NCBI GenBank assembly: GCA_013359235.1
Contig: JABWCE010000009.1
Coordinates: 8,796 to 72,795 of the forward strand
Length of the DNA: 64,000 bases
Direction: 5' to 3'
From: Bacteroidota bacterium
GTDB lineage: Bacteria > Bacteroidota > Bacteroidia > NS11-12g > UBA9320
Of this stretch, positions 13,079 through 44,085 are shown piece by piece. The position numbers were made by a program, and so were the translations under genes. Position 1 is the stretch's first letter, and each line of letters starts with the position of its first letter. Under the pieces are notes generated by a model. That model saw only the letters and a program-made list of their open reading frames with translations. It was not told where the DNA came from and did not search any database.

Positions 13079-13093
13079 CACGCCTTTAAATAT

Positions 13094-13167: not shown

Positions 13168-13175
13168 CTAATCAA

Positions 13176-13211: not shown

Positions 13212-13214
13212 AAA

Positions 13215-13523: not shown

Positions 13524-13628
13524 TCAGAGGGTCGTCCCGACTTATTCGGGATCCAGCAGGGGGAGCTAATCAAAAACACTTGCTCAAAAGGCAAGTGTTT
13601 TGTTTTTTAAAGTGAAGTATTACATATA
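13492..13628 (+). repeat. Degenerate direct repeat of 13107..13231 (tRNA-Asn from the D-loop to the 3' end, plus terminator, plus 20 bp). The anticodon arm and T-arm are each replaced by GC-rich palindromic hairpins
   Basis: The copies are collinear apart from three differences. catctgactg is replaced by TCCCGCAGGTGCGGGA. ctggttcaagt is replaced by TCCCGACTTATTCGGGAT. One T is missing from the terminator T-run. The terminator hairpin and the trailing AAAGTGAAGTATTACATATA are preserved. Confidence 0.8.
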
Positions 13629-13668
13629 TTAGATATAATTTTATTTTTTGTAAATATAGAAAATAAGT

Positions 13669-13676
13669 TACATTTG
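13669..13676 (+). promoter_or_regulatory. Candidate -7 promoter box TACATTTG for the TolB-like gene
   Basis: Exact TAnnTTTG match 35 bp upstream of the ATG at 13711. Confidence 0.3.
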
Positions 13677-13710
13677 TTTAATATTTTATAAATCAAAACT
13701 CTTTATTTAT

Positions 13711-33300: not shown

Positions 33301-34793
33301 GAAATGTAAGCAATGGCGGTAATTATACTGATTCAGTTGAAAATTATATTCCAATTGATATAACAGGAAACTATATTGTAATACTCAAAACTGATGATGT
33401 TAATGAAGAGTATGAACACACAAACGAAGGTAATAATACAGTTACAGGTATTACAACAATAAGTAAAGCACCTCCAGCAGACCTTATTGTTTCATATATT
33501 TCTTCTCCTGACAGTGTAATTAGTGGTAAAAATATTAATGTTACCTATAAAGTGAAAAACATTGGCAGCAATCCTGCTTCAGGGTATTTGAGAGACAATA
33601 TATATCTTTCTGTAGATAATAAGCAAGATGCCTCAGATTATAAAATAAATTCTGAATTGTATTCAATTTCGCTTGGAACAGGCTCCGAAAACACAAAAAA
33701 TCATACTTTAAATGTTAGCGGTGTTCCATTGGGTGATTATTATGTAATAGTTTCTACCGATGTAATGAATAATATAAACGAAATTAGCGATACCAACAAT
33801 TCATCGTATTCATCAAATAAACTTAATGTAAATGTTCCAATTCTTAAAATTGGTGTAAAGGAATTTGATACATTGCCTGATAATAGTAAAATTTATTACA
33901 GAATATTGATACCCGATGAATTAGAAGGAGAAACAATGCTCATTACATTAAAAGCTGATTCAATAAAGGGAAATAATGAAATGTATGTTAGATTTAACGA
34001 CATAGCAAGTTCATCGAGTTTTGATTATAAACATGGTGATCCATTTAAGGGAAATCAGGAAATTATTATCCCCGAACTAAAAAAAGGTACATATTATTTG
34101 TTAACAACTGGAAAAACTTCAGCTGGAGATACTCAAAAAATAAGTCTTTTAGCACGAATTTTACCATTTGAAATAAGAAAAGTTTCGCCTAAAAAAGGTG
34201 GAAACACTGGTGAAGTTACTGTATTAATTGAAGGTTCTAAATTTACTGATGAAACAATTTTCATGCTATTAGATACAGCTTTAGGCGGCTCTGGTATTAC
34301 TGATGGTGAAGAAGAAATGTATCAATATTCAACTTCTTCGCCATTAAATTCAAACTTTATTGATCCTACTAAAGTATATGCAACATTTAATTTAAAGGGT
34401 ATGAAAAAGAGCAAGTATCATGTAAAAGCTGTAAAAGAAATGGAAGAAACTATTCTGAAAAATTCATTTACAATAGAAGCAGGAACAAATGAAAATCTAA
34501 TTGTAACGATGGAAAGGCCCGGCAATACCAGACGCAATATGATATTGTATTGGGATATTATTTTTGCAAATTTTGGCAATACAGATATTGTAAATAAGAA
34601 GTTAAGAATTGTGAGTTCAGGTGGTGCTCCAATAGCTTTAGACCCCAACGATTTAAAAAAGGTATATAGAGAAATAGAAGTAACTGTTCAGGGCGATGAA
34701 GGTCCACCAAATAGATTGTCGCCTGGCGGATATGGAAAAGTAAGGATATATACAGAATCTTCAGGAGCATTAGGTATAACAATAATTAAATAA
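18378..34793 (+). CDS. Giant (5471 aa) secreted modular cell-surface protein: N-terminal Cys-containing domain, ~7-8 tandem ~540-aa modules (CARDB-like Ig domain plus right-handed parallel beta-helix ending in the …TPDIGADEF motif), an Fn3-like domain, ~10 tandem CARDB domains, and a PPC-like domain
   Basis: Single uninterrupted ORF with an N-terminal signal peptide. The PDIGADEF motif recurs at ~1.63-kb spacing. The C-terminal repeats carry the CARDB-like pattern LTPPPDL.V…SG…Y.V.N.G…W.D.VYLS. Confidence 0.85.
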   Translation: MKNRFYSKLSQLFATLSVLFLFSVSKVNAQTSDTKVFDYDISGGCNVCADSFKYNYYTYDSFLDATSSKKYIESIEVKLKFFSCYSGPLYLYMNGNLIATNAIGSMCSCNSCDSSTFIINSNNVIKYYNYKQKNYFMIKTNNDNNIYIDRTIIKRNFSDRFNYDAGIFSIDSPIVNTCPGSKNIKVKVFNNGKQPISSLTIDWKWNGVSQSSASISGTLDTIGGSGSNNQVVTIGSKTFTKGKIDTLKVWTKNPGGVSDSLNSNDTMNYLFYGSYSDTITVGGTSPMFTTVQAAVNALMTYGVCGPTYIKIRPGTYTEQVTINTIPGVSASNTVTFLSSTLDSSSVIISYNSTSSSNNFTVKINETKFINFYKISIRSLSTSYSRVVSFTGNVENIVFQNCYINAAIVTSTGSSRTAIYRSYNSSSEKFNNISILNSLINGGSYGIYFSNSYVNYMNGFYVRNCIFQNQYYVNIRCDYAENVDIKGNTLNKSNSSYTWGGNAIYFNNISDSMWIRDNIISHDNAGECIYISGASGSSTNRLVIANNFISGNNNNTSGNLINLDYCSYIDLVYNNTFCSYADNAYCLNISEGNNIRLFNNNFYNDNLGEVFNIISETSSCVTQSDNNNFYHEDYGLGNWYGNYIDNIDDLKVLGMDSNSVSVDPNYTSQVNLHTYNVDLKSNAKPYSGITKDIDGESRNSSTPDIGADEFKLKTLDAGIVDRIRVTPGTKCLKVVLKNFGSNTLTSAKIDWKLNGVSKTQVNWSGSLAKGDTDIVCLGNVNFLKDSLYLLKAWTSAPNSGTDSLSDNDTLLTDFYTSLSGEYTIGGTSPDFTTFTAAVDALNDYGIIDSVLFKVRNGTYTEQLDFGYIDGATRANSVIFQSESKDSTKVTLEYGSSSYYNNYVVKLDETRGLTFRKMRIKNFSSTYMRVFDVVDRSKWFTLENNIITNLDSTNTSDETALVYINYNSGSDYLFKQNVFHNGSYAININGSWAAFDNKINIKNNIFKNQGYQTIMLYNVRNIDLSGNNINENRPYFAKGIYVSYIYGKNNIYNNYIYLTGVPEIGIQLYNQSMYAGDSLNLYNNMISIGGTYPGVGIYGSNLYNTNIYYNSVLNTCTDSTSNSCAFYYDWGNIRMYNNNFVHLNNGYSLYISSAAYQKSNFNNLYTNGTKFVYWNGNSYSNLNSYKTASSNDTSSVSIDPYFTSVSNLHTSHIGLNAKAKVIGTITKDFDGDTRNTTTPDIGADEFTPFSRDASITKFITPGNIFKADSTNFEVVVTNLGLDTIKQITVSVKINNDTLPRKYVTRSFASGDTIIVKINKKYYLHKDSTYKFTAWSSLPNGSSDQKPSNDTLTKSNQKTALSGVYTIGGTSPNYNTFKAAVNDLKSRGIIDSVRFRVRMGTYTEQFRIPQISGASKRNSIIFESEDKDTTKVTLTYASSYYDTNYVVYLDGADGITFRYMTISATSPYSYNRIFNLRNNAHNNTIYKNVLIAPNTNYAADENSLIYSENSDDNNLLINNNHFKNGDYGVYLNGYAPYSYEHGLEISDNVFQNQYGYGIYLYYGDSVNIYNNYFYSDKYYYYTGLYANYLNSNIKINKNSFVIKQGKNGIYLYSTGNSFKRNLISNNALYINNNSSSCYGIRLNYFNYFDVIHNTVNLEGTNNSSSAIYGDYGGNNTFYNNNIVNSSGYSIYLTSTSTFTNLNYNNYKSSGSYLGYWAGTYCSNLTSWQTTSTKDTLSKSVNPIFYSNTNLHVKEVALNGAAKYFSIVPNDFDGQPRNTSTPDIGADEFDLPANDGGIAAIIVPKKPFPADSQWVKVVLKNYGSNAITSVSINWKFNGTTQTTKSWTGTLNSGDTVHVKLLKKFFVGGTPYSTKVWTTSPNGSTDPENTNDTTEELNQYPAMSGVYTIGGSSPDFANFNAAINAMKLGGIIDSVRFDVRDGTYNEQFRIPKIAGAENENSIIFQSQSKDSSKVILTYAPSYSNNWIVRIDSARGVTFRYMRFNSGGGSYNRIFVVYGDAQNINLHNCLLKGIYSSTSDYSALVYTNYEYSDCPNFNNFKIYKNIFLYGSFGVYSYGYSYNSRANNLNIYENKFENQYYMGLYIYYNRNLIINKNNIYHTNSYTGYTSGYGIYLYYLTEGYKITSNKIYNQEYTAISATNCNGAVGDSSLVANNFIHSRNTSSTTNAVNFYNNYYLNFYYNNIHIKNTNANSTSAYFQYLDYSNINNNNFVNIGNGWALYAYYGSIIKFNNNNYYTNGSKLLNRNGNSYANLSDWQTATSYDLNSLNVNPNYTTDTDLHTDQIDLNGKARNIKYIIDKDIDEQSRDINTPDIGADEYVPPAIDAGVTLLKSPGSTFSATTYDIIAIIKNFGTDTIKKVKVKIKINNDTLARKIVTKSIKTGDTAHVKLGQFTFHKDSTYNMYVWTFEPNDVSDQNSENDTLKLLNKQTALSGVYTIGGTTPDFTNFKAAVNALKTRGIIDSVRFRVRSGTYTEQLKIPEITGAGSRNSIIFESENKDTSSVTLMYNSVYSDTNYVVLLDGADGITFRYLIIKANSSSNYNRVISLKNGAHYNTIYKNIIEGSNTSWGSDYNALIYSGSDADNNTQIKDNHFKNGDIAIFLYGYPSQAPYTYEKGNEISGNKILNPYYRGIHLQYQDTLNISANYLYMDKYNGATGIYLDNAKTNITIYRNILELKQAYSGFNFDYFGTSFNRNLVSNNAIYIKNNSSGCNGIYFYSPQYVDLIHNSINVESSINGSKALYLYYGSYNNLFNNNFVNSGYGYSNYIYSTSNLTSNYNNLFSNSTTYFANWNGTNISNISAWKSTTSKDANSISVDPLYKAANNLHVKEMSLNAAGTYFSSVPLDFDYETRDNTHPDIGADEFQLPSNDAGVYSIIVPKKPFPADSQYVKVAIKNFGGNKIYQVNIGWTFNGVLQTPITCTDSIESGDTLHIKLAKMFFAKYTNHNVKVWTYSPNGASDGLITNDTMQVLNQQPAMSGVYTIGGASPDFATFNDAVNAMKTCGIIDSVRFDVRSGTYYEKFIIPYIAGANNENSIIFQSELKDSSKVVLMGTPSYTDNYVVRFDSTIGVTFRYLTLRTTLPLYYNRVVEMNRECKKINIHDCNLIGNYASGTDYNESVIYIYNSNTVFNSFNNIKIYRNNIINGSYGVYCNGSSNFSKGIDLKIYQNNFYNQYYMGMFLSYNRNMYLHKNIIDRNISGYYTCFGVYIQEITEGFVVTNNKISNYNYYGLFAYYSYGSSGDTSLIANNFIHASSSNSINGAYIYNCNYINFFNNNINVVSTQSSSKSAYFYSLSNASVCNNIFSMNGAGFAMYNYYGSFIRSDFNNFYTGGTYLMNYNGTSYTTLSAYKSASGLETNSFNVDPDYVSNTDLHIRATDLDGKGRNHKYLITKDIDDQNRNTATPDIGADEFDIPAANDAGILSYISPVAAFAAGSNSVYVVIKNFGSDSLKSATIKWRVNGNLQTSKSWTGKLKTGQTDTVNIGNYNFISGKDHDLKFWTTDPNGVADTTNYNDTLLKNDVFAALDGVYTVYGTLPDFADLNEAFNAIKLGGVIDTVWLKLRSGTHTVNATLNQYLGSSPNHPVIIESASGDSSDVVLTGTTVIYLSGSDYIKFKKLTFQSHYRCIEINNMSNGISFENCHFIMDDYWWYTTYGIYSGSSADDSLTVKNCKFSDGDIAIYIYGYPNSGSILEKNHIISNNSFVNQSSKSIYVSYVNSLEVTKNLISTTSSNSTFIVEFNHTQNKINFSYNKIIRYADYSSGLVFYNHVGTNTTKSLISNNFISTYGSTLTKGVELYNSQYINFYHNSLNQYGSATGTNSFSLHINGGANFDIRNNVIANTGSGYSMFYENSPSSVNSDYNDIYSSGTYIGRINTTDYSTLSNWQSATSKEANSISFNPSYVSNTDLHSNLAALDSACLYISSVTDDIDNESRNTSYPDIGADEFQSLANNLGVVSVIKPETTCGLDSTYIKLRVFNFGNQNQVNYPLKYKLSSSPTIQSVTITDTIKPGQFYEYQFAAKEAISFNTTLSIKAWTDLSAEMYRNNDSILQSFINYSTPDSVKFMSPSNGTSNIDFPFTLSWLPSTGATKYDIYIWDTATSKPPTPTVSNHSQISYQITAGLAYGKTYYWQVIAKNPICYTNGVVQLFTIRHLPDLIVDEVNGPHTAFSGTNISVSWKVKNQGLGATNKNWHDNVYLSSDTIWDITDLNLGNTQNATALNPSQSYNSSLSFTIPNGTTGNYYLIVFADKYTNLKETNDDNNTKRDTGKIKITLTPPPDLQVMSVSRPSVVFSGSTVNTTYTVKNKGTGDTRYGGWYDHIYLSTEKVKNGSSYHIGTNWRSGNLKVDSSYSVTKSVTIPNYISGKYFFVVVTDYNNNEYEYAFESNNSTGSDTIKVLLTPPPDLIVKNVELKDTVSNSENVLINYNVINDGGTSTGNNFYDALYLCPTPTFNLSISSWIGQMFHYNLASKDTSEVSSYFQMPKNINGKYYLFVLTDYYNSINEVSNEGNNTSIRDSIIIFSPDLIVTKVIVNSIDSTGSTTPIKWTVKNVGKGNDYQGLRYDSIFISPSSTWNRSNAKALGRFNYSNNLLVGDSIDRNEIVTIPDGYLGTKYFYVFTDGTNNVYEWTKENNNINVSDSMVVKLSPYPDLLPLVLSYYDSAEAGQLISLIYKVKNQGTNIANPTWKDKFYLSKDSTFNPTKVIELNSVTKSSILKIDSSYSSAIYFTLPNSIARGDYYYWVFTDAQLNVFEYTNDSNNKARSPKAFIDGYPPVDLKVNCPTIYNDTLKSGSTYSIAYSVTNIGDAETQQSSWNDGVYLSTDSILSSGDIKLKTIPTNKSLKKDSSYSISSTITIPNGTEGKYYLIVKTDVGKVITDVDTNNNKKTVCKGNGFAKLFVIELTPPPDLRFISWNVPSTAISGQKMKIKWKVENNGTGATRSGSWTDKVYLSTDYNIDGNDYGFGYVRHSGNVSNGGNYTDSVENYIPIDITGNYIVILKTDDVNEEYEHTNEGNNTVTGITTISKAPPADLIVSYISSPDSVISGKNINVTYKVKNIGSNPASGYLRDNIYLSVDNKQDASDYKINSELYSISLGTGSENTKNHTLNVSGVPLGDYYVIVSTDVMNNINEISDTNNSSYSSNKLNVNVPILKIGVKEFDTLPDNSKIYYRILIPDELEGETMLITLKADSIKGNNEMYVRFNDIASSSSFDYKHGDPFKGNQEIIIPELKKGTYYLLTTGKTSAGDTQKISLLARILPFEIRKVSPKKGGNTGEVTVLIEGSKFTDETIFMLLDTALGGSGITDGEEEMYQYSTSSPLNSNFIDPTKVYATFNLKGMKKSKYHVKAVKEMEETILKNSFTIEAGTNENLIVTMERPGNTRRNMILYWDIIFANFGNTDIVNKKLRIVSSGGAPIALDPNDLKKVYREIEVTVQGDEGPPNRLSPGGYGKVRIYTESSGALGITIIK
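18880..30250 (+). repeat. Tandem array of ~1.6-kb diverged coding modules inside the giant gene
   Basis: PDIGADE(F/Y) motifs end near 20500, 22105, 23730, 25370, 27005, 28645 and 30245. The modules are collinear at the protein level but diverged at the DNA level. Confidence 0.7.
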
Positions 34794-34801: not shown

Positions 34802-37800
34802 ATGAAAAAATTAATATTAAATACAGCAAAAGTAATTTCGATAGCAATGTCACTTTTTGTGACAAACATATACGCTCAACAAAACAAAGAGCTGATTTTA
34901 GAAGCAGAATACAATAACTCTAATTTGCTATTTAGTTTCAAACCGCATCCATCTTGGAGTTATACTTCACTTGAAAACTTGCCTAAAGTTTTATCTGAAA
35001 TTTATAATGTCTCAGGAAACTTCACTTTCAAAGCAATGTCAACCGATAAAGGTGAAGGCTATACTGTCACAAAGTACATGCAAACAATAAATGGTTATCC
35101 TGTTGATGGCGGCGATATAATTATAAGCAGAAAAAGTAATGGACAAATTGAACAAATTATTGGTACTTTACGTGACCCGCTGACAATTGTTCCTCCAACA
35201 ATAAGTTCTGAAAAGGCATTAGAAATTGCAAATAATACTTTGGAAATTACACCAGATGATTATTTTAAAATTGCAAATGAACCAATACGACAACCAAAAA
35301 TTAATCTTAAATATGCAGCATTAAATGGAGTAGAAAATGCAAAAGTTGTACTTTGTTATGAAATTGAAATTTTAACAAATAAACCCACAAGAGTTTTTCT
35401 ATATATAAATGCAACCAATGGAAATGTGGAGTTTTATCACAAAGCAATGCATACTGCAAATGGTACCGGAAACTCGTTATATTCTGGCAATGGGTTAGCA
35501 GTAAATACTAAAAAGATAAGTAATACTAATTACAGATTAGAAGATACAGCCCGTAAAATAAGAACAATATATTGTTATAACGATACCCTTCATAATGGTA
35601 GTTGGATAATAGCTTGGGATGCAGATAATAATTTTACTTCCACTTGGCAAAAAGCGGGTATAGATGTTCATTATGGCATTGCAAAAACCTATGACTATTT
35701 TAAAACTAAACACAACAGAACATCTTATGACAATAATGGAACATTGATTAGGAATTTTTATGCATACTTACCTGTAGATGAAGCAAGAAATGGTGTAACA
35801 GGTTACAATAATGCATTTTGGAATGGATCAGAAATGATGTATGGAACAGGTGATGGAAATCTTTTTTCAGCACTGGTATCTGTTGATATTGCAGGTCATG
35901 AATTTTCACATGCCGTAGTAGAAAAAACTGCTAATCTTCAGTATCGCAATGAATCGGGAGCTTTAAATGAATCATTTGCCGATATTTTTGGTTATTGTAT
36001 TGAAGATTTTACCGAAGGTGGAAGTAATTGGCAAATTGGTGAAGATTGTTTTTCTCCAGCAACTGCAGGTGATGCATTAAGAAACATGCAAACACCAAAA
36101 ACACCCAATACTGTTCATAATGCTTTTAAACAACCAAATTGCTACGATGGAACATATTGGACATCGCAAGTAGGTTGTGTTCCAAATGACAATAATGACC
36201 TTTGTGGAGTTCACGGAAATTCAGGCGTCGGTAATTATTGGTTCTACCTACTTACCGCAGGAAGTGGAGGAGATAAACAAAATGACAAAAATAAAACCTA
36301 CAATGTTACCGGTATTACAAGAGCAAAAAGCGAAAAAATAGTTTATCGTGCTTTATCACAGTTTATGACTGCACATTCAGACTATAAAGCAGCAAGAAAA
36401 GCAACTTTACTCGCTGCCGAAAAACTGTACGGATATAAATCAAACGAATGGAAACAAGTATGTAATGCTTGGTATGCAGTAAATGTTGGAGATAAATGTT
36501 GTGATACATTAGAAGTAAAATTTGATGTAATCAATCCAAAATGTCATGATTCGCATGATGGAGAAATTGATCTTACAATAAAAAAGAAAGGTGGAGGAAA
36601 AGAACCTGAATACTATTGGCACAAAGGCGATACTACAAGTGTAGTATTTTCACGAAGTCAAGATGTTGTGGGGTTAGATTCAGGAAATTATGTGGTTGTA
36701 ATAAAAGATACTGTTGCAAAATGCGAAATTGTAGCAGATACAAATCTTGTAGCTCCTGATAAATTAAAATTGACTGTTTCAGGCAGCGGAGTGATTTTTG
36801 GAGCATGCCAAAGATCATTTACTGTTACTTTAACTGCTAATGCAAGTGGTGGTACTGAGCCATATACTTACAATTGGCCCAATGGAATAAAAGAAATTAT
36901 TTGTAGCGGTGGTAGTGGATTTTTCAGAACTTATACTGCAACAGTAATTGATAAAAATAATTGCACAGCCGAAGCAACGGCTTGGGTTATGTACATACCA
37001 ATTACTTGTTCGTACGACCCCAATGATATTATTGGTCCGCCAAGCTATGGTGATAAAAAATGGGTTTCGGTAAATGCTACTTTACCATATAAAATTAGAT
37101 ACGAAAATGATCCCAAATTTGCAACAGGACCTGCACAAAAAGTTTCAATTACTCATCCATTGGATACAAATGTAGATTTAACTTCGTTCAGGCTTTCAAG
37201 TTTTGGTTTTTATAAATACAATTTTGATGTTCCGAGCAATTCAACTACATATTCAGACAGATTAGATTTAAGAGATTCATTTGGGATATATCTTGATGTT
37301 ACAGCCGGAGTTGATATTAATACACGTGAAGCATTTTGGATTTTTGAAAGTATTGATCCTACAACCGGGGTACCTCCGCTCGATGGAAATAAAGGTTATT
37401 TAGCCATTAATGACACTATAACGCACAAGGGCGAAGGTTATGTAAATTATACCATAAAACCAAAATCAACTGCAAAAACACTCGATAGTATTAGAGCAAA
37501 AGCTACAATAGTTTTTGATGATAATACTCCAGTGCCTACCCCACGTATTCATAATATAATTGATGCAGTAGCACCAACAAGTTATATTAAAGATGTACCC
37601 GCTGTAATTGACTCAAATATTGTTGAAATGTATATCAAAGCAAAAGATGATACACTTGGTTCGGGTGTTGGTTACTTTAATATTTTTGTTTCTGAAAACG
37701 ATGGACCTTACAATTTAGTAGCAAACAAAATACAAGATACAATTTATAAATTCAGGGGCAATTTTGGTTCATCTTACAAAGCTTATTCTATTGCATTTGA

Positions 37801-40800
37801 TAATACAGATAATGAAGAAAATGATAAAACAAGCCCTGATATTACTTTCAGTATTGCTTCAAATGAATTTTTTAAACCTATTCCATCAAATACAAGCTTA
37901 TGTTCTGGTGATACCCTTAAAATAAGATGGCAACGCTCATTTTTCAATTCAATAAAATTACAATACACAGCAGATTCCGGAGTTTCTTATACAACTTTTG
38001 CAACAAATTTAAGCGGCTCGGATACACTGTACAAATGGGTAATTCCAAGCTCAATCAGCGGAATTAAAAAATATTTTATTAGATCATTAACATCTACTGA
38101 TGTGGTTTTTGATACTTCAGATATTTTCGAATTAAAACAAGGACCAATTGTTAATTTAGGCAGAGATACCTCATTGTGCGATGGTACTTCATTTTCATTT
38201 GTACTTGATGCCGGAAGCGGATACCCTTCTTACAAATGGAACGATAGCACTACAAACCAAACCAAAACAGTGAACACCTATGGAACATACTGGGTTAAAG
38301 TTACAGCTTCAACAGGATGTAAATCTACTGATGAGTTTAAGATTATTAAAAATTTACTACCTGTTGTTTCGTCAAAATCTACCTCAAATCCAATGTGTTT
38401 TGGAGATTACAACGGAAGCATAGATATTACTGTAGTTTCTGGAACCGCACCATACAAGTACAAATGGAACAATAATGATTCAACTCAAGATTTATCTTCA
38501 ATTGCCGCAGGTACTTACATCGTAACAATTACCGATGTTAAAACATGCTCAATCAAAGATACTACCTTATTGACCCAGCCTGCAAAACTTACAATAAGCC
38601 ATGTTATATCAAATGTAAAATGTTTTGGTGGAAGTGATGGCTCAGTTGATATTACAGTTACAGGAGGTACAGCACCATATACTTATGTTTGGAGCAATTC
38701 TGCAACAACTCAGGATTTATCAGGTTTGGCAATTGGTAAATATTACCTGCAGGTGATAGATGACCACGGCTGTTTTGCTTATGATACAATTGAAATTACT
38801 CAACCTCCAAAACTTGCAAAATCTCATACTCTTACTCATGTTAAATGTTTTGGGCAAAGTACAGGTGCATTTGATGTTACAATCACCGGAGGAGTTACAC
38901 CATACAGTTATAGTTGGAGCAATTCATCAACAAATGAAGACTTGACAAATGTCCCAGCCGGAACGTATTATTTAACAGTAACCGATGCAAATTTGTGTAT
39001 TATTAAAGATACCGGTACAATTACACAACCATCAGCACCATTGGCAAGTACAAAAACTCAAGTTGATGTGAAATGTTACGGTGATGCAACCGGTTCTATT
39101 GATTTGACAGTAACAGGCGGAACGCCCGGTTATACTTATTCATGGACAGCAAGCGGTGGAGGAAGTGTTCCTTCAGGTCAATCAATCAATCAGGATTTGA
39201 CAGGTTTGATAGCAGGAACATATTCTGTTACTATTACCGATGCCAATAGTTGTACTTTAAATAATAGTGCAACAATTACCCAACCTGCTGCACCTTTAGC
39301 AAGTTCAAATACAAAAGTAGATGTGAAATGTTTTGGAGATGCAACAGGCTCTATTGATTTAACAGTTACCGGTGGAACAACAAGCTATTCATATTCATGG
39401 ACAGCAAGCGGCGGCGGAAGTGTTCCTACAGGACAATCAACCAATCAAGATTTAACAGGTTTGATAGCCGGAACGTATTCTGTTACAATTACCGATGCAA
39501 ATAATTGTATAAACACAAGAAGTGTTACAATAAGTCAACCAACATTGCTTACAAGTTCAGGAACTCAAGTAAATGTAAAATGCTATGGCGATGCAACCGG
39601 TTCTATTGATTTATCAGTAACAGGCGGAACTCCAGTCTATACTTATTCATGGACAGCAAGTGGTGGAGGAAGTGTACCTTCAGGTCAATCAACAAATCAA
39701 GATTTATCTGGTTTAATAGCCGGAACATATTCTGTTACAATTACTGATGCCTATAATTGTATAAAAACCAACAGTTTTACAATTACACAACCTTCAGCAC
39801 CATTAGCAAGTACTAAAACACAGATAAATGTAAAATGCTATGGTGATGCAACCGGTTCTATTGATTTGACAGTAACAGGCGGAACGCCCGGTTATACTTA
39901 TTCATGGACAGCAAGTGGTGGAGGAAGTGTTCCTTCTGGTCAATCAACCAATCAGGATTTGACGGGTTTAATAGCAGGAACATATTCTGTTACTATTACC
40001 GATGCCAATAGTTGTACAACAAATAATAGTGCAACAATTACCCAACCTTCAGCACCACTATCAAGCAGTTTGACACAAGTAAATGTAAAATGCTATGGTG
40101 ATGCAACAGGTTCAATTGACTTAACGGTTACCGGTGGAACAACTGGATATACATATTCTTGGACAGCCAGCGGAGGCGGAAGTGTACCAAGCGGACAATC
40201 AACCAATCAAGATTTAACAGGTTTGATAGCCGGAACATATTCTGTTACAATTACCGATGCAAATAATTGTACAAATACAAAGAGTACAACAATTACTCAA
40301 CCTTCGGCACCAATAACACCTTCTTATACTCAAGTAAATGTTAAATGTTACAGCAATTCAACCGGTTCTATTGATTTAACAGTAACAGGCGGAACTCCAG
40401 GTTACACATATTCATGGACAGCAAGCGGTGGAGGTAGCGTACCTTCGGGTCAATCAACCAATCAGGATTTAACAGGTCTTGTTGCCGGAACTTATACAGT
40501 TTTGATAACAGATGCAAATAATTGTACTAAGACAGTAAACGTTACTATTACCCAACCATCGGCTGCTCTTTCAAGCAGTTTGACTAAGGTTGATGTGAAA
40601 TGTTATGGTGATGCAACCGGTTCTATTGATTTAACAGTAACAGGCGGTACTACAGCCTACTCTTATTCATGGACAGCAAGCGGAGGTGGAAGTGTACCTT
40701 CGGGTCAATCAACCAATCAGGATTTGACAGGTTTGATAGCTGGAACTTATTCAGTAACTATTACTGATGCCAACAGTTGTACAACAACTAACAGTTCTAC

Positions 40801-43426
40801 TATTACCCAACCTTCTGCTCCACTATCAAGCAGTTTGACACAAGTAAATGTAAAATGTTATGGAGATGCTACAGGTTCAATTGATTTAACAGTAACAGGC
40901 GGAACAACTGGATATACATATTCTTGGACAGCAAGCGGAGGCGGCAGTGTGCCAAGCGGACAATCAACCAATCAAGATTTGACAGGTTTGATAGCCGGAA
41001 CATATTCTGTTACAATTACCGATGCAAATAACTGTACAAATACTAAGAGTACAACTATTACTCAACCTTCGGCTGCATTATCAAGTTCTTATACTAAAGT
41101 AGATGTTAAATGCTATAGTAATTCTACAGGTTCAATTGATTTAACAGTAACAGGCGGAACAACAGGATATACTTATTCTTGGACAGCAAGCGGAGGTGGA
41201 AGTGTACCATCAGGTCAATCAACCAATCAGGATTTGACAGGTCTTGTAGCCGGAACATATTCTGTAACTATTACTGATGCTAACGGCTGTACTGCTACTA
41301 ATTCTGTTACAATTACTCAACCATCAGCAGCATTGGCTTCTTCAAAAACAAGAATTGATGTAAAATGTAATGGTGATCCAACCGGTTCTATTGACTTAAC
41401 AGCAACAGGCGGAACAACTCCATACTCTTATTCATGGACTGCAACAGGCGGTGGTAGCGTACCTTCTGGTCAATCAACCAATCAAGATTTAACAGGGTTA
41501 GTTGATGGTTATTATTTTGTTACAGTAACGGATGCAAATGGTTGTACTACAAACGATTCTTCAGTAATAAAAGAACCTACTAAGCTTGTAATTTCACATA
41601 CAATTACAGATGTAAATTGCTATGGTGGTAATGATGGAGCAGTAAATATCACTGTTTCTGGTGGTATTTTGCCTTATACATTCAACTGGAGCAATAGTGC
41701 AACAACTGAAGATATTAACAACTTAATTTCAGGCAACTATTCAGTTACAGTAACCGATAAAAACGGTTGTACCATAAATGATGCCGGATACGTTAATCAA
41801 CCAACATTACTTGTTGCCACTCATATTGTAAGTGATGTAAATTGTTTCGATGGAAGTGACGGTGCTATCAATTTAACGGTTTCGGGAAGTGTTGCACCAT
41901 ACACATTTAGTTGGTCAAGCGGTGATAATACCGAAGATATTAGCGGAAAAACATTTGGTTGGTACAAAGTAAAAATAACTGATAGCCATAATTGTATTTT
42001 ATTCGACTCGGCTTATATTTCACAACCTGCGGCACCACTGGCATCAAGCGTAACAATTTCTGCTGTAAAATGCTTTGGAGGTAATGATGGCTCTGTTGAC
42101 CTTACAGTTACCGGAGGAACCTCTCCATATACTTATGCTTGGTCAAATAGCAGCACTACTCAGGATATTAATAATTTAATATTAGGTACATATTACGTTA
42201 CAATTACTGATAAAAATAATTGTATTTTGAAAGATACAGCTGATGTTACTCAACCTTTAGCTCCATTAGCTACTATCATTTCTAAGATATATGTAAAATG
42301 CTTTGGTGATGCAACCGGCTCGGCTGATTTAACAGTAAACGGAGGTACTACACCATACACTTATTTATGGTCAAACAGCAGTACAAATGAAGATTTAAGT
42401 AATTTAATTACCGGAAAATACAAAGTTCTTGTTACAGATAAAAATATGTGTACAATTACAGATTCTGTCTTCATCAAACAACCTTCTGCACCACTTTCAA
42501 GTACTATAAGTGCGGTAGCTGTTAATTGCTTTGGAGGTAATGATGGTTCTGTTTTATTCAATGTTGCTGGTGGAACATTGCCTTATACTTATTTGTGGTC
42601 AAATGGCGCTACAACACAAAATATTACTAATTTAACTCAAGGTAAATATGTTGTAACCGTTAGCGACTCAAGTGCATGTATTTTGAAAGATTCAATTGTT
42701 GTAACACAACCTACTGCTCCACTTAGTACTTCTACAATTATTGCAAATGTAAAATGCAAAGATGGCTCTGATGGTTCTGTTAACTTGACAGTTACAGGTG
42801 GTACAACTCCATATTCATTCAGTTGGAGTTCATCTCAAACATCAGAAGATATTTCAAATGTTCCTGCGGGGCATTATGTAGTTACAGTTACTGATAAAAA
42901 TCTCTGTGTTATAAAAGACAGTGCTGATGTAACAGAACCAACCAAGCTCCTTACAACAACCGATGGAACTTCTGCAACTCCAAGAATCAATAATGGACAT
43001 GTTTGGGTTATACCTACAGGAGGTACTCAGCCTTATTCATATACTTGGAGTATGACTTCACAGAATAATGACACAATACACAATGTAGGTATAGGTACTT
43101 ATTATGTAACAGTAACCGATGCCAATGGTTGCTCTAATAAAGATACAATCTTTGTACCCGAAGCACCTGTTCTTGAACTTATTAAATTATACCCCAATCC
43201 TACAATTGGATTTATTACTGTTTCAGAACTTGAAGCATTTGGTTTAGACCTTCCTATTACATTTGAATTATACGATTTGAAAGGTAAACTTAGAATGACT
43301 TTTGAAGTAATTGGTGTAAATACATATACTTTCAGATTTGATGATGCATTATACAATGGCTCTTATATTTTGAGAATGTATAACGACAGATACGAAGAAA
43401 ACAGAAAAGTATATCTATTAAGATAA
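34802..43426 (+). CDS. M4 (thermolysin-like) zinc metallopeptidase with FTP/PepSY propeptide, fused to ~25 SprB repeats and a T9SS type A C-terminal sorting domain (2874 aa)
   Basis: Signal peptide present. The M4 motifs are HEFSH…GALNESFADIFG and CGVHGNSGVGNYWFYLL. The SprB repeat pattern recurs (KC.G…G.IDLTVTGG..PY.Y.WS…DL..L..G.Y.V.V.D…C). The C-terminus (KLYPNPTIGFITV…) is a type A sorting domain. Confidence 0.85.
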   Translation: MKKLILNTAKVISIAMSLFVTNIYAQQNKELILEAEYNNSNLLFSFKPHPSWSYTSLENLPKVLSEIYNVSGNFTFKAMSTDKGEGYTVTKYMQTINGYPVDGGDIIISRKSNGQIEQIIGTLRDPLTIVPPTISSEKALEIANNTLEITPDDYFKIANEPIRQPKINLKYAALNGVENAKVVLCYEIEILTNKPTRVFLYINATNGNVEFYHKAMHTANGTGNSLYSGNGLAVNTKKISNTNYRLEDTARKIRTIYCYNDTLHNGSWIIAWDADNNFTSTWQKAGIDVHYGIAKTYDYFKTKHNRTSYDNNGTLIRNFYAYLPVDEARNGVTGYNNAFWNGSEMMYGTGDGNLFSALVSVDIAGHEFSHAVVEKTANLQYRNESGALNESFADIFGYCIEDFTEGGSNWQIGEDCFSPATAGDALRNMQTPKTPNTVHNAFKQPNCYDGTYWTSQVGCVPNDNNDLCGVHGNSGVGNYWFYLLTAGSGGDKQNDKNKTYNVTGITRAKSEKIVYRALSQFMTAHSDYKAARKATLLAAEKLYGYKSNEWKQVCNAWYAVNVGDKCCDTLEVKFDVINPKCHDSHDGEIDLTIKKKGGGKEPEYYWHKGDTTSVVFSRSQDVVGLDSGNYVVVIKDTVAKCEIVADTNLVAPDKLKLTVSGSGVIFGACQRSFTVTLTANASGGTEPYTYNWPNGIKEIICSGGSGFFRTYTATVIDKNNCTAEATAWVMYIPITCSYDPNDIIGPPSYGDKKWVSVNATLPYKIRYENDPKFATGPAQKVSITHPLDTNVDLTSFRLSSFGFYKYNFDVPSNSTTYSDRLDLRDSFGIYLDVTAGVDINTREAFWIFESIDPTTGVPPLDGNKGYLAINDTITHKGEGYVNYTIKPKSTAKTLDSIRAKATIVFDDNTPVPTPRIHNIIDAVAPTSYIKDVPAVIDSNIVEMYIKAKDDTLGSGVGYFNIFVSENDGPYNLVANKIQDTIYKFRGNFGSSYKAYSIAFDNTDNEENDKTSPDITFSIASNEFFKPIPSNTSLCSGDTLKIRWQRSFFNSIKLQYTADSGVSYTTFATNLSGSDTLYKWVIPSSISGIKKYFIRSLTSTDVVFDTSDIFELKQGPIVNLGRDTSLCDGTSFSFVLDAGSGYPSYKWNDSTTNQTKTVNTYGTYWVKVTASTGCKSTDEFKIIKNLLPVVSSKSTSNPMCFGDYNGSIDITVVSGTAPYKYKWNNNDSTQDLSSIAAGTYIVTITDVKTCSIKDTTLLTQPAKLTISHVISNVKCFGGSDGSVDITVTGGTAPYTYVWSNSATTQDLSGLAIGKYYLQVIDDHGCFAYDTIEITQPPKLAKSHTLTHVKCFGQSTGAFDVTITGGVTPYSYSWSNSSTNEDLTNVPAGTYYLTVTDANLCIIKDTGTITQPSAPLASTKTQVDVKCYGDATGSIDLTVTGGTPGYTYSWTASGGGSVPSGQSINQDLTGLIAGTYSVTITDANSCTLNNSATITQPAAPLASSNTKVDVKCFGDATGSIDLTVTGGTTSYSYSWTASGGGSVPTGQSTNQDLTGLIAGTYSVTITDANNCINTRSVTISQPTLLTSSGTQVNVKCYGDATGSIDLSVTGGTPVYTYSWTASGGGSVPSGQSTNQDLSGLIAGTYSVTITDAYNCIKTNSFTITQPSAPLASTKTQINVKCYGDATGSIDLTVTGGTPGYTYSWTASGGGSVPSGQSTNQDLTGLIAGTYSVTITDANSCTTNNSATITQPSAPLSSSLTQVNVKCYGDATGSIDLTVTGGTTGYTYSWTASGGGSVPSGQSTNQDLTGLIAGTYSVTITDANNCTNTKSTTITQPSAPITPSYTQVNVKCYSNSTGSIDLTVTGGTPGYTYSWTASGGGSVPSGQSTNQDLTGLVAGTYTVLITDANNCTKTVNVTITQPSAALSSSLTKVDVKCYGDATGSIDLTVTGGTTAYSYSWTASGGGSVPSGQSTNQDLTGLIAGTYSVTITDANSCTTTNSSTITQPSAPLSSSLTQVNVKCYGDATGSIDLTVTGGTTGYTYSWTASGGGSVPSGQSTNQDLTGLIAGTYSVTITDANNCTNTKSTTITQPSAALSSSYTKVDVKCYSNSTGSIDLTVTGGTTGYTYSWTASGGGSVPSGQSTNQDLTGLVAGTYSVTITDANGCTATNSVTITQPSAALASSKTRIDVKCNGDPTGSIDLTATGGTTPYSYSWTATGGGSVPSGQSTNQDLTGLVDGYYFVTVTDANGCTTNDSSVIKEPTKLVISHTITDVNCYGGNDGAVNITVSGGILPYTFNWSNSATTEDINNLISGNYSVTVTDKNGCTINDAGYVNQPTLLVATHIVSDVNCFDGSDGAINLTVSGSVAPYTFSWSSGDNTEDISGKTFGWYKVKITDSHNCILFDSAYISQPAAPLASSVTISAVKCFGGNDGSVDLTVTGGTSPYTYAWSNSSTTQDINNLILGTYYVTITDKNNCILKDTADVTQPLAPLATIISKIYVKCFGDATGSADLTVNGGTTPYTYLWSNSSTNEDLSNLITGKYKVLVTDKNMCTITDSVFIKQPSAPLSSTISAVAVNCFGGNDGSVLFNVAGGTLPYTYLWSNGATTQNITNLTQGKYVVTVSDSSACILKDSIVVTQPTAPLSTSTIIANVKCKDGSDGSVNLTVTGGTTPYSFSWSSSQTSEDISNVPAGHYVVTVTDKNLCVIKDSADVTEPTKLLTTTDGTSATPRINNGHVWVIPTGGTQPYSYTWSMTSQNNDTIHNVGIGTYYVTVTDANGCSNKDTIFVPEAPVLELIKLYPNPTIGFITVSELEAFGLDLPITFELYDLKGKLRMTFEVIGVNTYTFRFDDALYNGSYILRMYNDRYEENRKVYLLR
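39029..41578 (+). repeat. Ten tandem near-identical 255-bp (85-aa) SprB-type repeat units inside the M4-SprB gene
   Basis: All units start PSA(P/A)L…VKCYGDATGSIDLTVTGGT…YSWTASGGGSVPSGQSTNQDLTGLIAGTYSVTITDAN.C. Units 5 and 8 are 100% identical in protein but differ at synonymous DNA positions. Confidence 0.85.
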
Positions 43427-43442
43427 TTATAAATTAAATAAA

Positions 43443-43477
43443 AGAACCTGTAAAATATTTTACAGGTTCTTTTTTTA
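43443..43477 (+). terminator. Rho-independent terminator after the M4-SprB gene
   Basis: Palindrome AGAACCTGTAAAATATTTTACAGGTTCT followed by TTTTTT. Confidence 0.7.
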
Positions 43478-43491: not shown

Positions 43492-44085
43492 TTGAAACTA
43501 AATTTAAAATTTCTATTTTTTATATTTATTACAGCATTTGCACTGATATTATTAAATTGTGGTGATTGCCATAATACATGTATTCATGGGACAAGAGATA
43601 ATAGTTGCAAATGTGAATGTAACAATGGATGGATTGGCGTGAGTTGTGATCAACCGGAAAGTTCAAATTTGATAAGTGCAGAAAGTTATTATCCCGGTTA
43701 TTTTAAATATCAGACAGTTGATATTGAAATGACAACAAAAACCAATAATAGTAGTGATGATACATTATTTATAGATTCTGAAACTACATTTGGCGAATGG
43801 ATGTATTTCAGACTAATTGTAGATGATATAAATGACATAAATAACAAAAAATTTCCTGTTACAAAATCAAGTCTTAAAAACGAAGTTTGGTTAAGTCATT
43901 TACATCCATCAGTTACATCAAACGTATTTACTCCAACAACAAAAAAAACAATTGCAGGGTATTTAGAAATTGATAGTTTTAATCTTAGCCCAAAATTTTT
44001 AAAAGCTAAATTTCATGCTTCGCTTGAAGCGTCAAACATTGATACTTGTTTTATAAAAAACGGAATAATAGAATATAGTGAATAA
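43492..44085 (+). CDS. Small secreted protein or lipoprotein with an EGF-like cysteine module
   Basis: Signal peptide ending LLNC. The Cys pattern is CGDCHNTCIHGTRDNSCKCECNNGWIGVSC. 197 aa. Confidence 0.45.
   Translation: MKLNLKFLFFIFITAFALILLNCGDCHNTCIHGTRDNSCKCECNNGWIGVSCDQPESSNLISAESYYPGYFKYQTVDIEMTTKTNNSSDDTLFIDSETTFGEWMYFRLIVDDINDINNKKFPVTKSSLKNEVWLSHLHPSVTSNVFTPTTKKTIAGYLEIDSFNLSPKFLKAKFHASLEASNIDTCFIKNGIIEYSE

What the first reader, a model, noticed from the sequence alone, without database searches (positions are those of the whole stretch)
34802..43426. Thermolysin-family (M4) protease fused to a long SprB-repeat stalk and T9SS type A C-terminal domain
SprB repeats are the building block of the gliding-motility adhesin SprB and are normally found in non-catalytic adhesins. 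Here a complete M4 module is placed at the tip of ~25 SprB repeats with a T9SS sorting domain. The M4 module has an FTP/PepSY propeptide, HEFSH, the GALNESFADIFG glutamate and a C-terminal helical domain. This predicts a cell-surface-tethered, possibly gliding-track-mobile, metalloprotease, an unusual way to display a protease.
Basis: partly seen in the sequence, partly recalled or inferred. Interest (0 to 1): 0.65.

Follow-up and report, generated by a model that had tools for sequence, protein, structure and literature searches.

The report
Long-stalked thermolysin protease, T9SS cargo
This gene encodes an intact thermolysin-type protease at the end of a roughly 90-nm stalk of about 26 Ig-like domains with a type IX secretion signal, and it belongs to a small, undescribed but conserved family in uncultured Bacteroidota that is always encoded directly behind a giant surface-protein gene.

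Summary
ORF 34802..43426 (2874 aa) encodes a signal peptide, an FTP/PepSY propeptide and an M4 domain with every thermolysin catalytic residue. Then come an SprB-repeat pair, a DUF7619/fn3/Ig module, 19 tandem SprB repeats plus a degenerate one, and a type A T9SS sorting domain. There are 20 significant SprB repeats, not about 25, and the stalk is interrupted.

It is not an assembly chimera. At least eight independent MAG assemblies carry the same continuous ORF, and pN is far below pS in every region.

- SprB repeats are not confined to non-catalytic adhesins. The same scaffold carries M23 and RHS heads elsewhere, and M4 heads joined it more than once.
- Movement on the gliding track is unlikely. 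Published CTD-swap experiments show the CTD decides destination, and type A CTDs give static anchoring or release.

The new point is a conserved cassette. The gene always follows, within a few nucleotides, a homologue of the window's 5471-aa β-helix/CARDB giant, which has no recognisable CTD. In other phyla the giant's C-terminal module and DUF7619 lie in one polypeptide.

Most likely it is a T9SS-exported, stalk-borne active protease that works together with the giant. Whether it stays anchored or is released is unresolved.

The parts
34802..34876 (+). Sec signal peptide (aa 1-25, MKKLILNTAKVISIAMSLFVTNIYA|QQ). It has no Cys, so it is not a lipoprotein signal.
   Evidence: Read from the translation. 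The n-region, h-region and A-Q cleavage context are my inference; no predictor was run.
34877..35455 (+). Propeptide (aa 26-218) with an FTP motif and a PepSY-like domain. In M4 zymogens this region acts as intramolecular chaperone and inhibitor.
   Evidence: Pfam FTP 74-122, E 1.2e-9. PepSY 134-209 scores 18.7 bits, below its cutoff. It aligns to the thermolysin pre-pro region of 5a3y from residue 81.
35456..36496 (+). M4 (thermolysin-family) catalytic domain, aa 219-565. HEFSH lies at 366-370, E390 is the third zinc ligand, and Y381, R427 and H471 are present. It ends in the invariant K565-C566-C567.
   Evidence: Pfam Peptidase_M4 and Peptidase_M4_C. Thermolysin alignment E 8.7e-58. The catalytic residues are invariant in 6 orthologue clusters. 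dN/dS is 0.11 against L001.
36497..37015 (+). First SprB repeat (Cys at aa 581) plus a degenerate SprB-like domain, aa 566-738, joined directly to M4 with no linker.
   Evidence: This is the most conserved part of the protein against L001 (87.9% identity, dN/dS 0.03).
37016..37816 (+). DUF7619 (PF24595) region, aa 739-1005. It is a CnaA-like beta-sandwich starting with the invariant DPN-x-I-x-GP, followed by an fn3-like beta-sandwich.
   Evidence: Pfam E 7e-15. AlphaFold2 model pLDDT 91.3. Fold hits are Ig/FnIII strings, AgI/II, SspB, PrgB and GhpA. The family is predicted to hold an isopeptide bond in PMC12617251.
37817..38371 (+). Two further Ig-like domains, aa 1006-1190, called MID_B and MID_C here. 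MID_B resembles Kre9_KNH; MID_C resembles an SprB repeat.
   Evidence: AF2 model. Collinear conservation in P0121-P0125. Kre9_KNH Pfam hit at the equivalent position in P0176 and P0199.
38372..42958 (+). Tandem array of 19 SprB repeats (R2-R20, aa 1191-2719). Each is an Ig-like domain of 75-85 aa with two invariant Cys.
   Evidence: Pfam SprB E 5.6e-219. Repeat table. The AF2 model of a repeat pair has pLDDT 95.1 and shows two in-line beta-sandwiches. Its best TM-scores, 0.52-0.62, are to GhpA fragments.
39050..41593 (+). Sub-array R5-R14 (aa 1417-2264): an 85-aa repeat variant with the insertion TASGGGSVPSGQS. It explains the local rise in G+C.
   Evidence: TRF finds period 255 nt, 9.7 copies, 78% matches. 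Pairwise DNA identity is 66-92%. G+C is 0.37-0.39 here against about 0.31 elsewhere. The same variant occurs in P0122 and P0123.
42959..43186 (+). Degenerate last SprB-like domain, aa 2720-2795, which lacks the first Cys.
   Evidence: Sequence. It is conserved at the same position in orthologues, mapped as 'LASTdeg'.
43187..43426 (+). Type A T9SS C-terminal sorting domain (aa 2796-2874) and the stop codon.
   Evidence: Pfam Por_Secre_tail 58.1 bits against a cutoff of 27. TIGR04183 59.5 bits against 23. Homologous CTDs are present in P0121, P0124, P0125, P0127 and in L001, L002, L005, L006, L007, L009 and L012.
43440..43473 (.). Perfect 15-bp palindromic hairpin with T/A runs on both sides, 14 nt after the stop codon. 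It is a likely bidirectional terminator closing the operon.
18378..34793 (+). Upstream partner gene: a 5471-aa secreted giant with beta-helix/NosD and CARDB repeats and a conserved C-terminal module. It has no recognisable T9SS CTD. Its stop codon lies 8 nt before the M4-SprB start codon.
   Evidence: Pfam and NCBIfam. Junction sequence. A homologue sits directly upstream in all 9 orthologous loci that have upstream sequence, and it is linked to or fused with DUF7619 in most of the other 29 loci.

Best explanation
The gene encodes a catalytically competent thermolysin-family (M4) zinc protease built as head, stalk and secretion signal. The proposed steps are as follows.

1. A Sec signal peptide takes the zymogen to the periplasm (inferred).
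2. [quoted passage not shown]
3. The N-terminal FTP/PepSY propeptide is then cleaved off. This leaves the active M4 domain as the N-terminal, distal tip of a rod of about 26 beta-sandwich domains: 22 SprB-type domains, a DUF7619 CnaA-like domain, an fn3-like domain and two Ig-like domains.
4. Scaling from the solved GhpA fibre puts the rod at roughly 90 nm (inferred).

The protein is either held statically at the cell surface by its C-terminus or released. In either case it does not ride the gliding track.

It is one member of a conserved family in uncultured Bacteroidota. The family is always co-transcribed behind a giant beta-helix/CARDB protein that lacks its own T9SS signal. The protease-tipped stalk therefore most likely works with that giant, either as its partner or anchor or as its processing enzyme. 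It is unlikely to be a free-standing digestive enzyme.

Shown: the architecture, the intact active site, purifying selection, the conserved family, the conserved cassette and the fold of the stalk. Inferred: the export route, maturation, length, surface retention and partnership with the giant.
For: Architecture and active site.

Real gene under selection: dN/dS is 0.03-0.13 in every region against the 82%-identical orthologue L001, with no gaps in the repeat array.

Conserved family: five 50%-identity cluster representatives align collinearly over aa 1-1190 and share the full architecture, including a homologous CTD. Twelve species-level MAGs encode it, eight or more as complete ORFs of 2110-3107 aa with 14-27 SprB repeats.

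Stalk fold: AF2 models have pLDDT 91 and 95. The closest solved structure is GhpA, a T9SS fibre with an N-terminal functional head, an Ig-like stem and a C-terminal sorting signal, 240 nm long for 5898 aa.

Destination: CTD-swap experiments (PMC12618676).

Cassette: an 8-nt gap to the giant gene. The giant's homologue lies directly upstream in 9 of 9 informative orthologous loci. Giant-DUF7619 linkage or fusion is seen in most of 29 further loci across phyla. The giant has a signal peptide but no CTD, even at E <= 10.
Against: There is no experimental evidence: all family members come from uncultured MAGs.

Anchoring versus release cannot be predicted from a type A CTD, and small M4+CTD proteases of F. 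columnare are found in spent medium.

M4 proteases often shed C-terminal extensions autocatalytically, so the head could separate from the stalk after export.

The presence of T9SS core genes, PorU and PorV in this genome was not checked; only other CTD-bearing cargo in the window supports it.

The link to the giant rests on gene order and fusions, not on any demonstrated contact.

The length estimate is a scaling argument, not a measurement.
Confidence: 0.7

Rival explanations
1. One reading: the SprB repeats load the protease onto the gliding machinery, so it travels along the helical track like SprB.
For: The protein has 20 SprB repeats. RemA, an adhesin with a type A CTD, was reported in an earlier study to move helically (mentioned in PMC12618676).
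Against: In F. johnsoniae the SprB body fused to a type A CTD (RemA or AmyB) is static or released. The SprB type B CTD alone drives an amylase onto the track. This protein has a type A CTD. No PorP/SprF-like gene follows it. SprB repeats occur in many non-motility proteins.
Confidence: 0.05
2. It is a released, soluble protease. The CTD is cleaved and the whole protein leaves the cell. The stalk then acts as a substrate- or particle-binding extension, or as a spacer, rather than as a tether.
For: Many type A CTD cargoes in Flavobacteria are released. AmyB and the SprB-body-CTD(AmyB) fusion go to the medium. A thermolysin-like CTD peptidase of F. columnare is found in cell-free spent medium.
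Against: A conserved rod of about 26 domains, whose sequence is more constrained than the enzyme itself (88% against 78% identity; dN/dS 0.03-0.09 against 0.11), is hard to explain as a mere appendage of a diffusible enzyme. The closest structural analogue is a surface-anchored fibre. Strict co-transcription with a giant surface protein also argues against it.
Confidence: 0.25
3. It is an armed appendage. The DUF7619/SprB scaffold protein and the giant form one two-protein surface fibre, and the scaffold supplies the T9SS signal or anchor that the giant lacks. The exchangeable head (M4 here; M23 cell-wall peptidase or RHS toxin elsewhere) arms the fibre for attacking prey, competitors or particulate substrate at a distance.
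For: The same scaffold carries M23 heads (HxxxD...HxH; Pfam Peptidase_M23 3.8e-10), RHS heads and abhydrolase+M4 heads. L028 has an M23 head behind a giant homologue. The M4 heads are polyphyletic, so heads were captured repeatedly. The giant's C-terminal module and DUF7619 are fused in one ORF in Planctomycetota, Deltaproteobacteria, Binatia and some Bacteroidota. The giant has no CTD. The stalk fold is closest to the prey-catching GhpA fibre.
Against: No physical interaction has been tested. About 45 scaffold clusters have no head at all. Fusion partners are separated by 260-1100 aa, and in L025 and L036 by a hydrophobic Gly/Ala-rich segment, so the topology is unclear. The M23 assignment reached significance for only one of the two heads scanned. 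Predation is pure inference.
Confidence: 0.2
4. It is an artefact: an assembly chimera joining a protease gene to an SprB gene, or a collapsed or expanded repeat array.
For: The window presumably comes from a metagenome assembly, as all its relatives do. The gene is repeat-rich, and G+C rises inside it.
Against: The same continuous ORF with the same M4-to-SprB junction occurs in at least 8 independent assemblies and 5 or more protein clusters. L001 matches along the whole length at 82% identity, with no gaps in the repeat array. The repeat DNA copies are only 66-92% identical, so they can be assembled. The G+C rise is explained by the Gly/Thr/Ser-rich 85-aa repeats. pN is far below pS throughout.
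Confidence: 0.01

Closest known systems
Thermolysin and bacillolysin (MEROPS family M4; PDB 5a3y, 1npc)
   Same: FTP/PepSY propeptide, HExxH plus the NExxSD glutamate, Tyr157/His231/Arg203 equivalents, and a two-lobed catalytic domain. E 8.7e-58 over 480 residues.
   Different: Classical M4 enzymes are free, soluble proteins of about 35 kDa. This one carries a C-terminal extension of about 2300 aa and a T9SS signal, and it has extra Cys residues, including an invariant KCC at the junction.
Small M4 + type A CTD T9SS proteases of Bacteroidota (for example F. columnare C6N29_03390, 682 aa; many 650-1000 aa proteins)
   Same: An M4 head plus a Por_Secre_tail type A CTD. The best such hits are 41-48% identical in the M4 domain.
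   Different: They have at most a few Ig, fn3 or PKD domains between enzyme and CTD. None of the top 120 has PF13573. They are found in spent medium. They are not linked to a giant gene, as far as was examined.
SprB, the gliding adhesin of Flavobacterium johnsoniae (6497 aa)
   Same: Built from the same SprB Ig-like repeat. It is a T9SS cargo and a long filament.
   Different: SprB has a type B CTD and a cognate SprF shuttle, which together target it to the gliding track. It has no enzyme head. This protein has a type A CTD and no sprF-like neighbour.
GhpA, the grappling-hook protein of Aureispira sp. (5898 aa; PDB 9flw, 9flp and others)
   Same: Same design: an N-terminal functional head at the distal tip, a stem of Ig-like repeats with disulfides, and a C-terminal T9SS sorting domain. 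It is the best structural match to the SprB-repeat pair (TM 0.52-0.62, 20-23% identity).
   Different: GhpA's head is an adhesin hook, not an enzyme. It forms heptamers and is anchored by the PorP/PorE homologues GhpB and GhpC, encoded downstream. No such genes are present here, and oligomerisation is unknown.
Gingipains RgpA and Kgp of Porphyromonas gingivalis (from my own knowledge)
   Same: T9SS type A CTD cargo that combines a protease with non-catalytic adhesin domains on the cell surface.
   Different: They are cysteine proteases with haemagglutinin/adhesin domains that are proteolytically processed into a complex. They have no SprB repeats and no long rod.
Fhf1, a GH107 endo-fucoidanase of Formosa haliotis (PMC7698502)
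   Same: A characterised enzyme with an N-terminal catalytic domain, an Ig-like domain, an SprB repeat and a T9SS CTD. This shows that SprB repeats do occur in enzymes.
   Different: It has a single SprB repeat and 1120 aa in total. It is a glycoside hydrolase.

Membership tests
Peptidase family M4 (thermolysin) | HExxH zinc-binding motif with the catalytic Glu | tested here: met
   HEFSH at 366-370, aligned to thermolysin HELTH and invariant in 6 family members.
Peptidase family M4 (thermolysin) | Third zinc ligand Glu in NExxSD, 20 residues after the second His (Glu-zincin) | tested here: met
   N389-E390-S-F-A-D aligns to thermolysin N165-E166-A-I-S-D. E390 is invariant.
Peptidase family M4 (thermolysin) | Transition-state residues Tyr157 and His231, and Arg203 | tested here: met
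   Y381, H471 (CGVHGNSG) and R427 (GDALRNM) align to them, and all are invariant.
Peptidase family M4 (thermolysin) | Both Pfam domains above the gathering score, plus an FTP/PepSY propeptide | tested here: met
   Peptidase_M4 111.2 bits against a cutoff of 22.4; M4_C 163.6 against 24.4; FTP 38.3 against 21. PepSY, at 18.7 against 24, is below its cutoff.
Peptidase family M4 (thermolysin) | Proteolytic activity | not testable with these tools
   This needs recombinant enzyme.
T9SS type A CTD cargo | C-terminal TIGR04183 / PF18962 domain at the extreme C-terminus | tested here: met
   aa 2796-2870 of 2874. TIGR04183 59.5 bits against 23; PF18962 58.1 against 27.
T9SS type A CTD cargo | N-terminal Sec signal peptide | tested here: inconclusive
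   The sequence MKKLILNTAKVISIAMSLFVTNIYA|QQ looks like a classical signal peptide, but no predictor was available.
T9SS type A CTD cargo | Host encodes a T9SS (GldK/L/M/N, SprA, PorV, PorU) | not tested
   None of these genes lies in the window. Indirect support: two other CTD-bearing proteins are in the window, a type A at 44117..47434 and a type B CHU_C at 56606..60370.
SprB-type gliding adhesin | SprB repeats (PF13573) | tested here: met
   20 stretches, E 5.6e-219.
SprB-type gliding adhesin | Type B CTD (TIGR04131 / CHU_C), which is what targets cargo to the gliding track | tested here: not met
   The CTD is type A. No TIGR04131 or PF13585 hit was found. The role of the CTD comes from PMC12618676.
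SprB-type gliding adhesin | Cognate PorP/SprF-like shuttle gene immediately downstream | tested here: not met
   Downstream lie a 197-aa ORF with no significant family hit even at E <= 10 and an fn3 protein with a type A CTD.
GhpA-like grappling hook | Sequence homology to GhpA, heptameric stem, and ghpB/ghpC (PorP/PorE) genes downstream | tested here: not met
   The only similarity is at fold level in the repeats (20-23% identity, TM 0.52-0.62). No PorP/PorE-like neighbours are present. Oligomeric state cannot be tested.
DUF7619 (PF24595), a CnaA-like 'CLIPPER-related' isopeptide domain | Pfam match above the gathering score and a beta-sandwich fold | tested here: met
   55.7 bits against 27. 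AF2 pLDDT 91, all-beta. Fold hits include isopeptide-bonded adhesin stalks.
DUF7619 (PF24595), a CnaA-like 'CLIPPER-related' isopeptide domain | Lys-Asp-Asn isopeptide triad | tested here: inconclusive
   The triad was predicted for one family member in PMC12617251. In this clade the position where I expected the Lys, after DPN-D, is Ile in 70 of 82 homologues. That expected position is my own inference, and model coordinates could not be inspected.
TANFOR polymorphic toxin (considered for the upstream giant) | N-terminal TANFOR domain (TIGR02542) | tested here: not met
   No such NCBIfam hit anywhere in the giant at E <= 0.01.

The most novel reading that the evidence does not exclude
The M4-SprB protein is the CTD-bearing subunit of a previously undescribed two-protein surface appendage. 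The appendage is conserved across Bacteroidota and is fused into one chain in Planctomycetota, Deltaproteobacteria and Binatia. A giant beta-helix/CARDB protein with no secretion signal of its own depends on the DUF7619/SprB scaffold for export or anchoring. Exchangeable enzymatic or toxic heads (M4, M23, RHS) arm the fibre for contact-dependent attack on prey, competitors or particles.
Probability: 0.2. Interest if true: 0.8.

Novelty: new variant of a known kind. Interest (0 to 1): 0.52.

Why it matters
T9SS cargo is usually sorted into two kinds: soluble enzymes and fibrous adhesins. This family joins the two. An active protease sits on a rod of adhesin length, and the rod is more strongly conserved than the enzyme.

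The same scaffold has repeatedly picked up different lytic or toxic heads, and it is always tied to a giant CTD-less partner. That pattern suggests a modular surface machine that nobody has described.

If the partnership is real, it would give a concrete, testable case of how a protein without a T9SS signal reaches the surface. That question is still open in the T9SS literature (PMC9936825 discusses 'nonCTD' proteins that need the T9SS). It would also offer a natural design for displaying enzymes at a fixed distance from a cell.

If it is not real, this is simply a long-tailed secreted M4 protease from an uncultured bacterium.

Tried and rejected
1. Assembly chimera or repeat mis-assembly. Rejected on orthologues in independent assemblies, diverged repeat DNA and a gap-free alignment of the array to L001.

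2. The giant as a TANFOR polymorphic toxin. This lead came from the reported enrichment of SprB/CTD genes next to TANFOR genes (PMC7073777). There is no TANFOR hit.

3. Self-cleavage at the invariant DPN-x-I-x-GP start of DUF7619, by analogy with the RHS DPxGL motif. Nothing supports it. The module is a confidently predicted beta-sandwich stalk domain, and its relatives are isopeptide 'CLIPPER' folds.

4. An intramolecular isopeptide bond in DUF7619. It could not be shown, because no conserved Lys lies at the expected column.

5. Enrichment of the Bacteroidota O-glycosylation sequon D[ST][AILVMT] in the stalk. There are 20 observed against 16.2 +/- 3.9 in shuffles, so no enrichment.

6. A weak or novel CTD at the giant's C-terminus. 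Nothing was found at E <= 10, and there is no sequence relative in the PDB.

7. Surveying fusions with the search for homologous proteins. Its word filter missed the long orthologues: the best M4 hit was 41% identical, and one search returned only short fragments, including one TARA Oceans M4_C+SprB fragment. The exhaustive representative search and the genome scan were needed.

8. Literature. No paper in the library combines the SprB repeat, a protease and type IX secretion.
Full report
**1. What is there**

A single ORF runs from 34802 to 43426 on the + strand and encodes 2874 aa.

| Domain | Residues | Score |
|---|---|---|
| FTP | 74-122 | E 1.2e-9 |
| PepSY-like | 134-209 | 18.7 bits, below the 24-bit cutoff |
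| Peptidase_M4 | 221-374 | E 7.8e-32 |
| Peptidase_M4_C | 377-562 | E 4.9e-48 |
| SprB | 20 stretches | E 5.6e-219 |
| DUF7619 | about 739-1005 | E 6.3e-13 |
| Por_Secre_tail / TIGR04183 (type A) | 2796-2870 | 58.1 and 59.5 bits |

Against thermolysin (E 8.7e-58) every catalytic residue is in place:
- H366, E367 and H370 (HEFSH)
- E390 (NESFAD)
- Y381, R427 and H471
- the NNAFWNG substrate-binding strand

All of these are invariant across six family members.

My own repeat map corrects two details. There are 20 canonical SprB repeats plus two degenerate ones, not about 25. They also do not form one continuous stalk:
- One canonical and one degenerate repeat follow M4 directly (aa 566-738).
- A module of about 450 aa follows (aa 739-1190).
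- Then come 19 tandem repeats (aa 1191-2719) and a degenerate one (aa 2720-2795).
- Ten repeats (aa 1417-2264) are an 85-aa variant with the insertion TASGGGSVPSGQS.

A strong palindromic hairpin follows the stop codon.

**2. Is it real?**

The repeat DNA copies are only 66-92% identical to each other, so the array can be assembled.

An exhaustive HMMER search of 1.84 billion cluster representatives with aa 1-1190 found five proteins that align collinearly over the whole query at 42-54% identity (P0121-P0125). My domain mapping shows the same order in them: propeptide, M4, SprB pair, DUF7619 module, SprB array. P0121, P0124 and P0125 also end in a homologous CTD.

A scan of one genome per GTDB species found 12 MAGs with the M4+scaffold gene. 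In eight or more of them it is a complete ORF of 2110-3107 aa with 14-27 SprB repeats.

The closest, L001 (Bacteroidia bacterium SJ44), is 82% identical over the full length, with no gaps in the repeat array.

Codon comparison with L001 gives pN far below pS in every region, with dN/dS of 0.03-0.13. Synonymous sites are near saturation, so the ratios are approximate.

The chimera and artefact hypotheses are therefore rejected. NCBI names two members only 'M4 family metallopeptidase', and all members are from uncultured organisms.

**3. The stalk**

An AlphaFold2 model of aa 732-1115, built on 82 homologues, has pLDDT 91.3. It shows three consecutive beta-sandwich domains. Foldseek matches them to strings of Ig/FnIII domains, including:
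- the isopeptide-bonded stalks of streptococcal AgI/II and SspB
- PrgB
- fragments of GhpA

DUF7619 has been predicted to be a CnaA-like intramolecular-isopeptide domain related to DUF11/'CLIPPER' (PMC12617251). I could not confirm the triad here, because the column where I expected the Lys is Ile in 70 of 82 homologues.

A model of two adjacent SprB repeats (pLDDT 95.1) shows two in-line Ig-like domains. The best superpositions are to several fragments of GhpA, the T9SS-secreted grappling hook of Aureispira (TM 0.52-0.62, 20-23% identity).

[quoted passage not shown] It measures 240 nm for 5898 aa (bioRxiv 10.1101/2024.01.29.577165). Scaling gives about 90 nm for the 2230-aa stalk here. This is an inference.

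The stalk is more conserved than the enzyme. Against L001 the stalk regions are 86-88% identical, against 78% for M4 and 72% for the propeptide.

**4. Where does it go?**

The CTD is type A. In F. johnsoniae the CTD, not the passenger, dictates destination:
[quoted passage not shown] No PorP/SprF-like gene follows this gene. Travel on the gliding track is therefore unlikely.

Static surface display and release both remain possible. Small M4+CTD peptidases are found in spent medium (PMC9936825).

**5. Is an enzyme on SprB repeats unusual?**

- None of the 120 best M4 relatives in the word-indexed search carried PF13573, so the fusion is rare among M4 proteases.
- Among the 149 best representatives of the N-terminal 1190 aa, 77 contain the DUF7619 module and 13 combine it with an M4 head.
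- Ten others carry a head of about 650 aa with HxxxD...HxH. Pfam scored one of the two heads scanned as Peptidase_M23, at 3.8e-10.
- Two carry RHS repeats and one adds an alpha/beta hydrolase.
- About 45 have no head.
- The M4 heads are polyphyletic. The window's M4 is as close to stand-alone M4+CTD proteases (48%) as to its own family (47-50%). It is only 31-39% identical to the second scaffold-bearing group.
- A characterised fucoidanase also has an SprB repeat and a CTD (PMC7698502).

The scaffold is therefore a reusable display module, and M4 is one of several heads.

**6. The unexpected part: a conserved partner**

The gene starts 8 nt after the stop codon of a 5471-aa ORF (18378..34793). 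That protein has a signal peptide, beta-helix/NosD repeats and CARDB repeats. It has no recognisable T9SS CTD, even at E <= 10, and no sequence relative in the PDB.

In all nine orthologous loci with upstream sequence, a homologue of this giant lies directly upstream on the same strand. Identity is 42-65% over the roughly 3300 aa of upstream ORF that the 10-kb flank captures (less in L008 and L012), and the alignments run to the giant's last residues.

The pattern extends to the 29 further loci found through the DUF7619 pattern:
- In 11 Bacteroidota loci, a giant homologue is a separate upstream gene. One of these loci has an M23 head.
- In 9 loci, the giant's C-terminal module lies in the same ORF as DUF7619. 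These come from Planctomycetota, Deltaproteobacteria, Binatia, Rhodothermales and two Bacteroidota.
- In L036 and L037, only the non-CARDB part (aa 5035-5466) matches, so this is not a generic repeat hit.

The conserved partnership is therefore between the giant and the scaffold, and the protease head is an accessory. What the pair does is not known. In two fused forms a Gly/Ala-rich hydrophobic segment lies just before DUF7619, and in L036 an RHS core does too. I cannot explain this.

**7. Verdict**

The most likely reading is a T9SS-exported, active thermolysin-type protease at the tip of a rod of about 90 nm that acts together with the co-transcribed giant. Surface anchoring versus release is unresolved, and gliding-track mobility is unlikely.

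It is a new variant of known kinds (M4 T9SS cargo; SprB/GhpA-type fibres) rather than something categorically new. The giant-scaffold cassette with exchangeable heads is the part that deserves follow-up.

Noticed in passing
window 18378..34793 (+) and loci L001-L004, L006-L009, L012: A 5471-aa giant (signal peptide, beta-helix/NosD and CARDB repeats, a conserved C-terminal ~430 aa, no recognisable T9SS CTD) ends 8 nt before the M4-SprB gene. A homologue occupies the same position in every orthologous locus that has upstream sequence.
   Followed up: partly
L025, L026, L030, L034, L036-L040: In Planctomycetota, Deltaproteobacteria, Binatia, Rhodothermales and two Bacteroidota MAGs, the giant's C-terminal module and DUF7619 lie in one ORF, a Rosetta-stone fusion. 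In L025 and L036 a Gly/Ala-rich hydrophobic stretch, and in L036 also an RHS core ending in DPxGL, lies just before DUF7619.
   Followed up: partly
P0127, P0129, P0164, P0167, P0170, P0191, P0194, P0211, P0234, P0235; L028 7652..12520: The same SprB-pair/DUF7619 scaffold is found behind a ~650-aa head with HEGVDI...HTHxH (M23-type metallopeptidase). P0127 is 3145 aa, has 27 SprB repeats and a CTD homologous to the window's. P0176 and P0199 carry RHS repeats instead.
   Followed up: partly
window 34802..43426 compared with L001 10001..18607: The stalk is more conserved than the enzyme. R1/R1b and DUF7619 are 88% identical (dN/dS 0.03-0.08), against 78% for M4 (0.11) and 72% for the propeptide (0.13). 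Repeat number is identical in the two species, although it ranges from 14 to 27 across the family.
   Followed up: yes
window 56606..60370 (+): A 1254-aa protein with a type B T9SS signal (CHU_C, PF13585) and no other Pfam domain. No PorP/SprF-like gene is adjacent, since the next genes are on the opposite strand. It is therefore an 'orphan' type B cargo in the same genome.
   Followed up: no
window 44117..47434 (+): A 1105-aa protein with a weak F510_1955-type glycosylhydrolase match (132 bits, below the 175-bit cutoff), fn3 domains and a type A CTD. It is conserved downstream only in L001 (72% identity), so it is not part of the cassette.
   Followed up: partly
window 43492..44085 (+): A 197-aa TTG-start ORF with no family hit (only sub-threshold EGF-like Cys patterns) and no counterpart in L001-L012. 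In L001 the corresponding intergenic gap is only 165 nt, so the window has about 500 extra bases here.
   Followed up: partly
L012 6359..8506 and 8256..14240: In this Chitinophagaceae MAG the orthologue is split into two overlapping ORFs of 716 and 1995 aa. The break lies between the first SprB repeat and DUF7619, and is either a frameshift pseudogene or an assembly error.
   Followed up: no
window 38000..42000: G+C rises from about 0.30 to 0.37-0.39. The rise coincides with the Gly/Thr/Ser-rich 85-aa SprB repeat variant and is not a sign of foreign DNA.
   Followed up: yes
P0374 (TARA Oceans fragment, 180 aa): A marine metagenome fragment carries the same M4_C-to-SprB junction (53% identity). 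The family may therefore extend beyond the wastewater and other MAG sources suggested by the isolate names.
   Followed up: no
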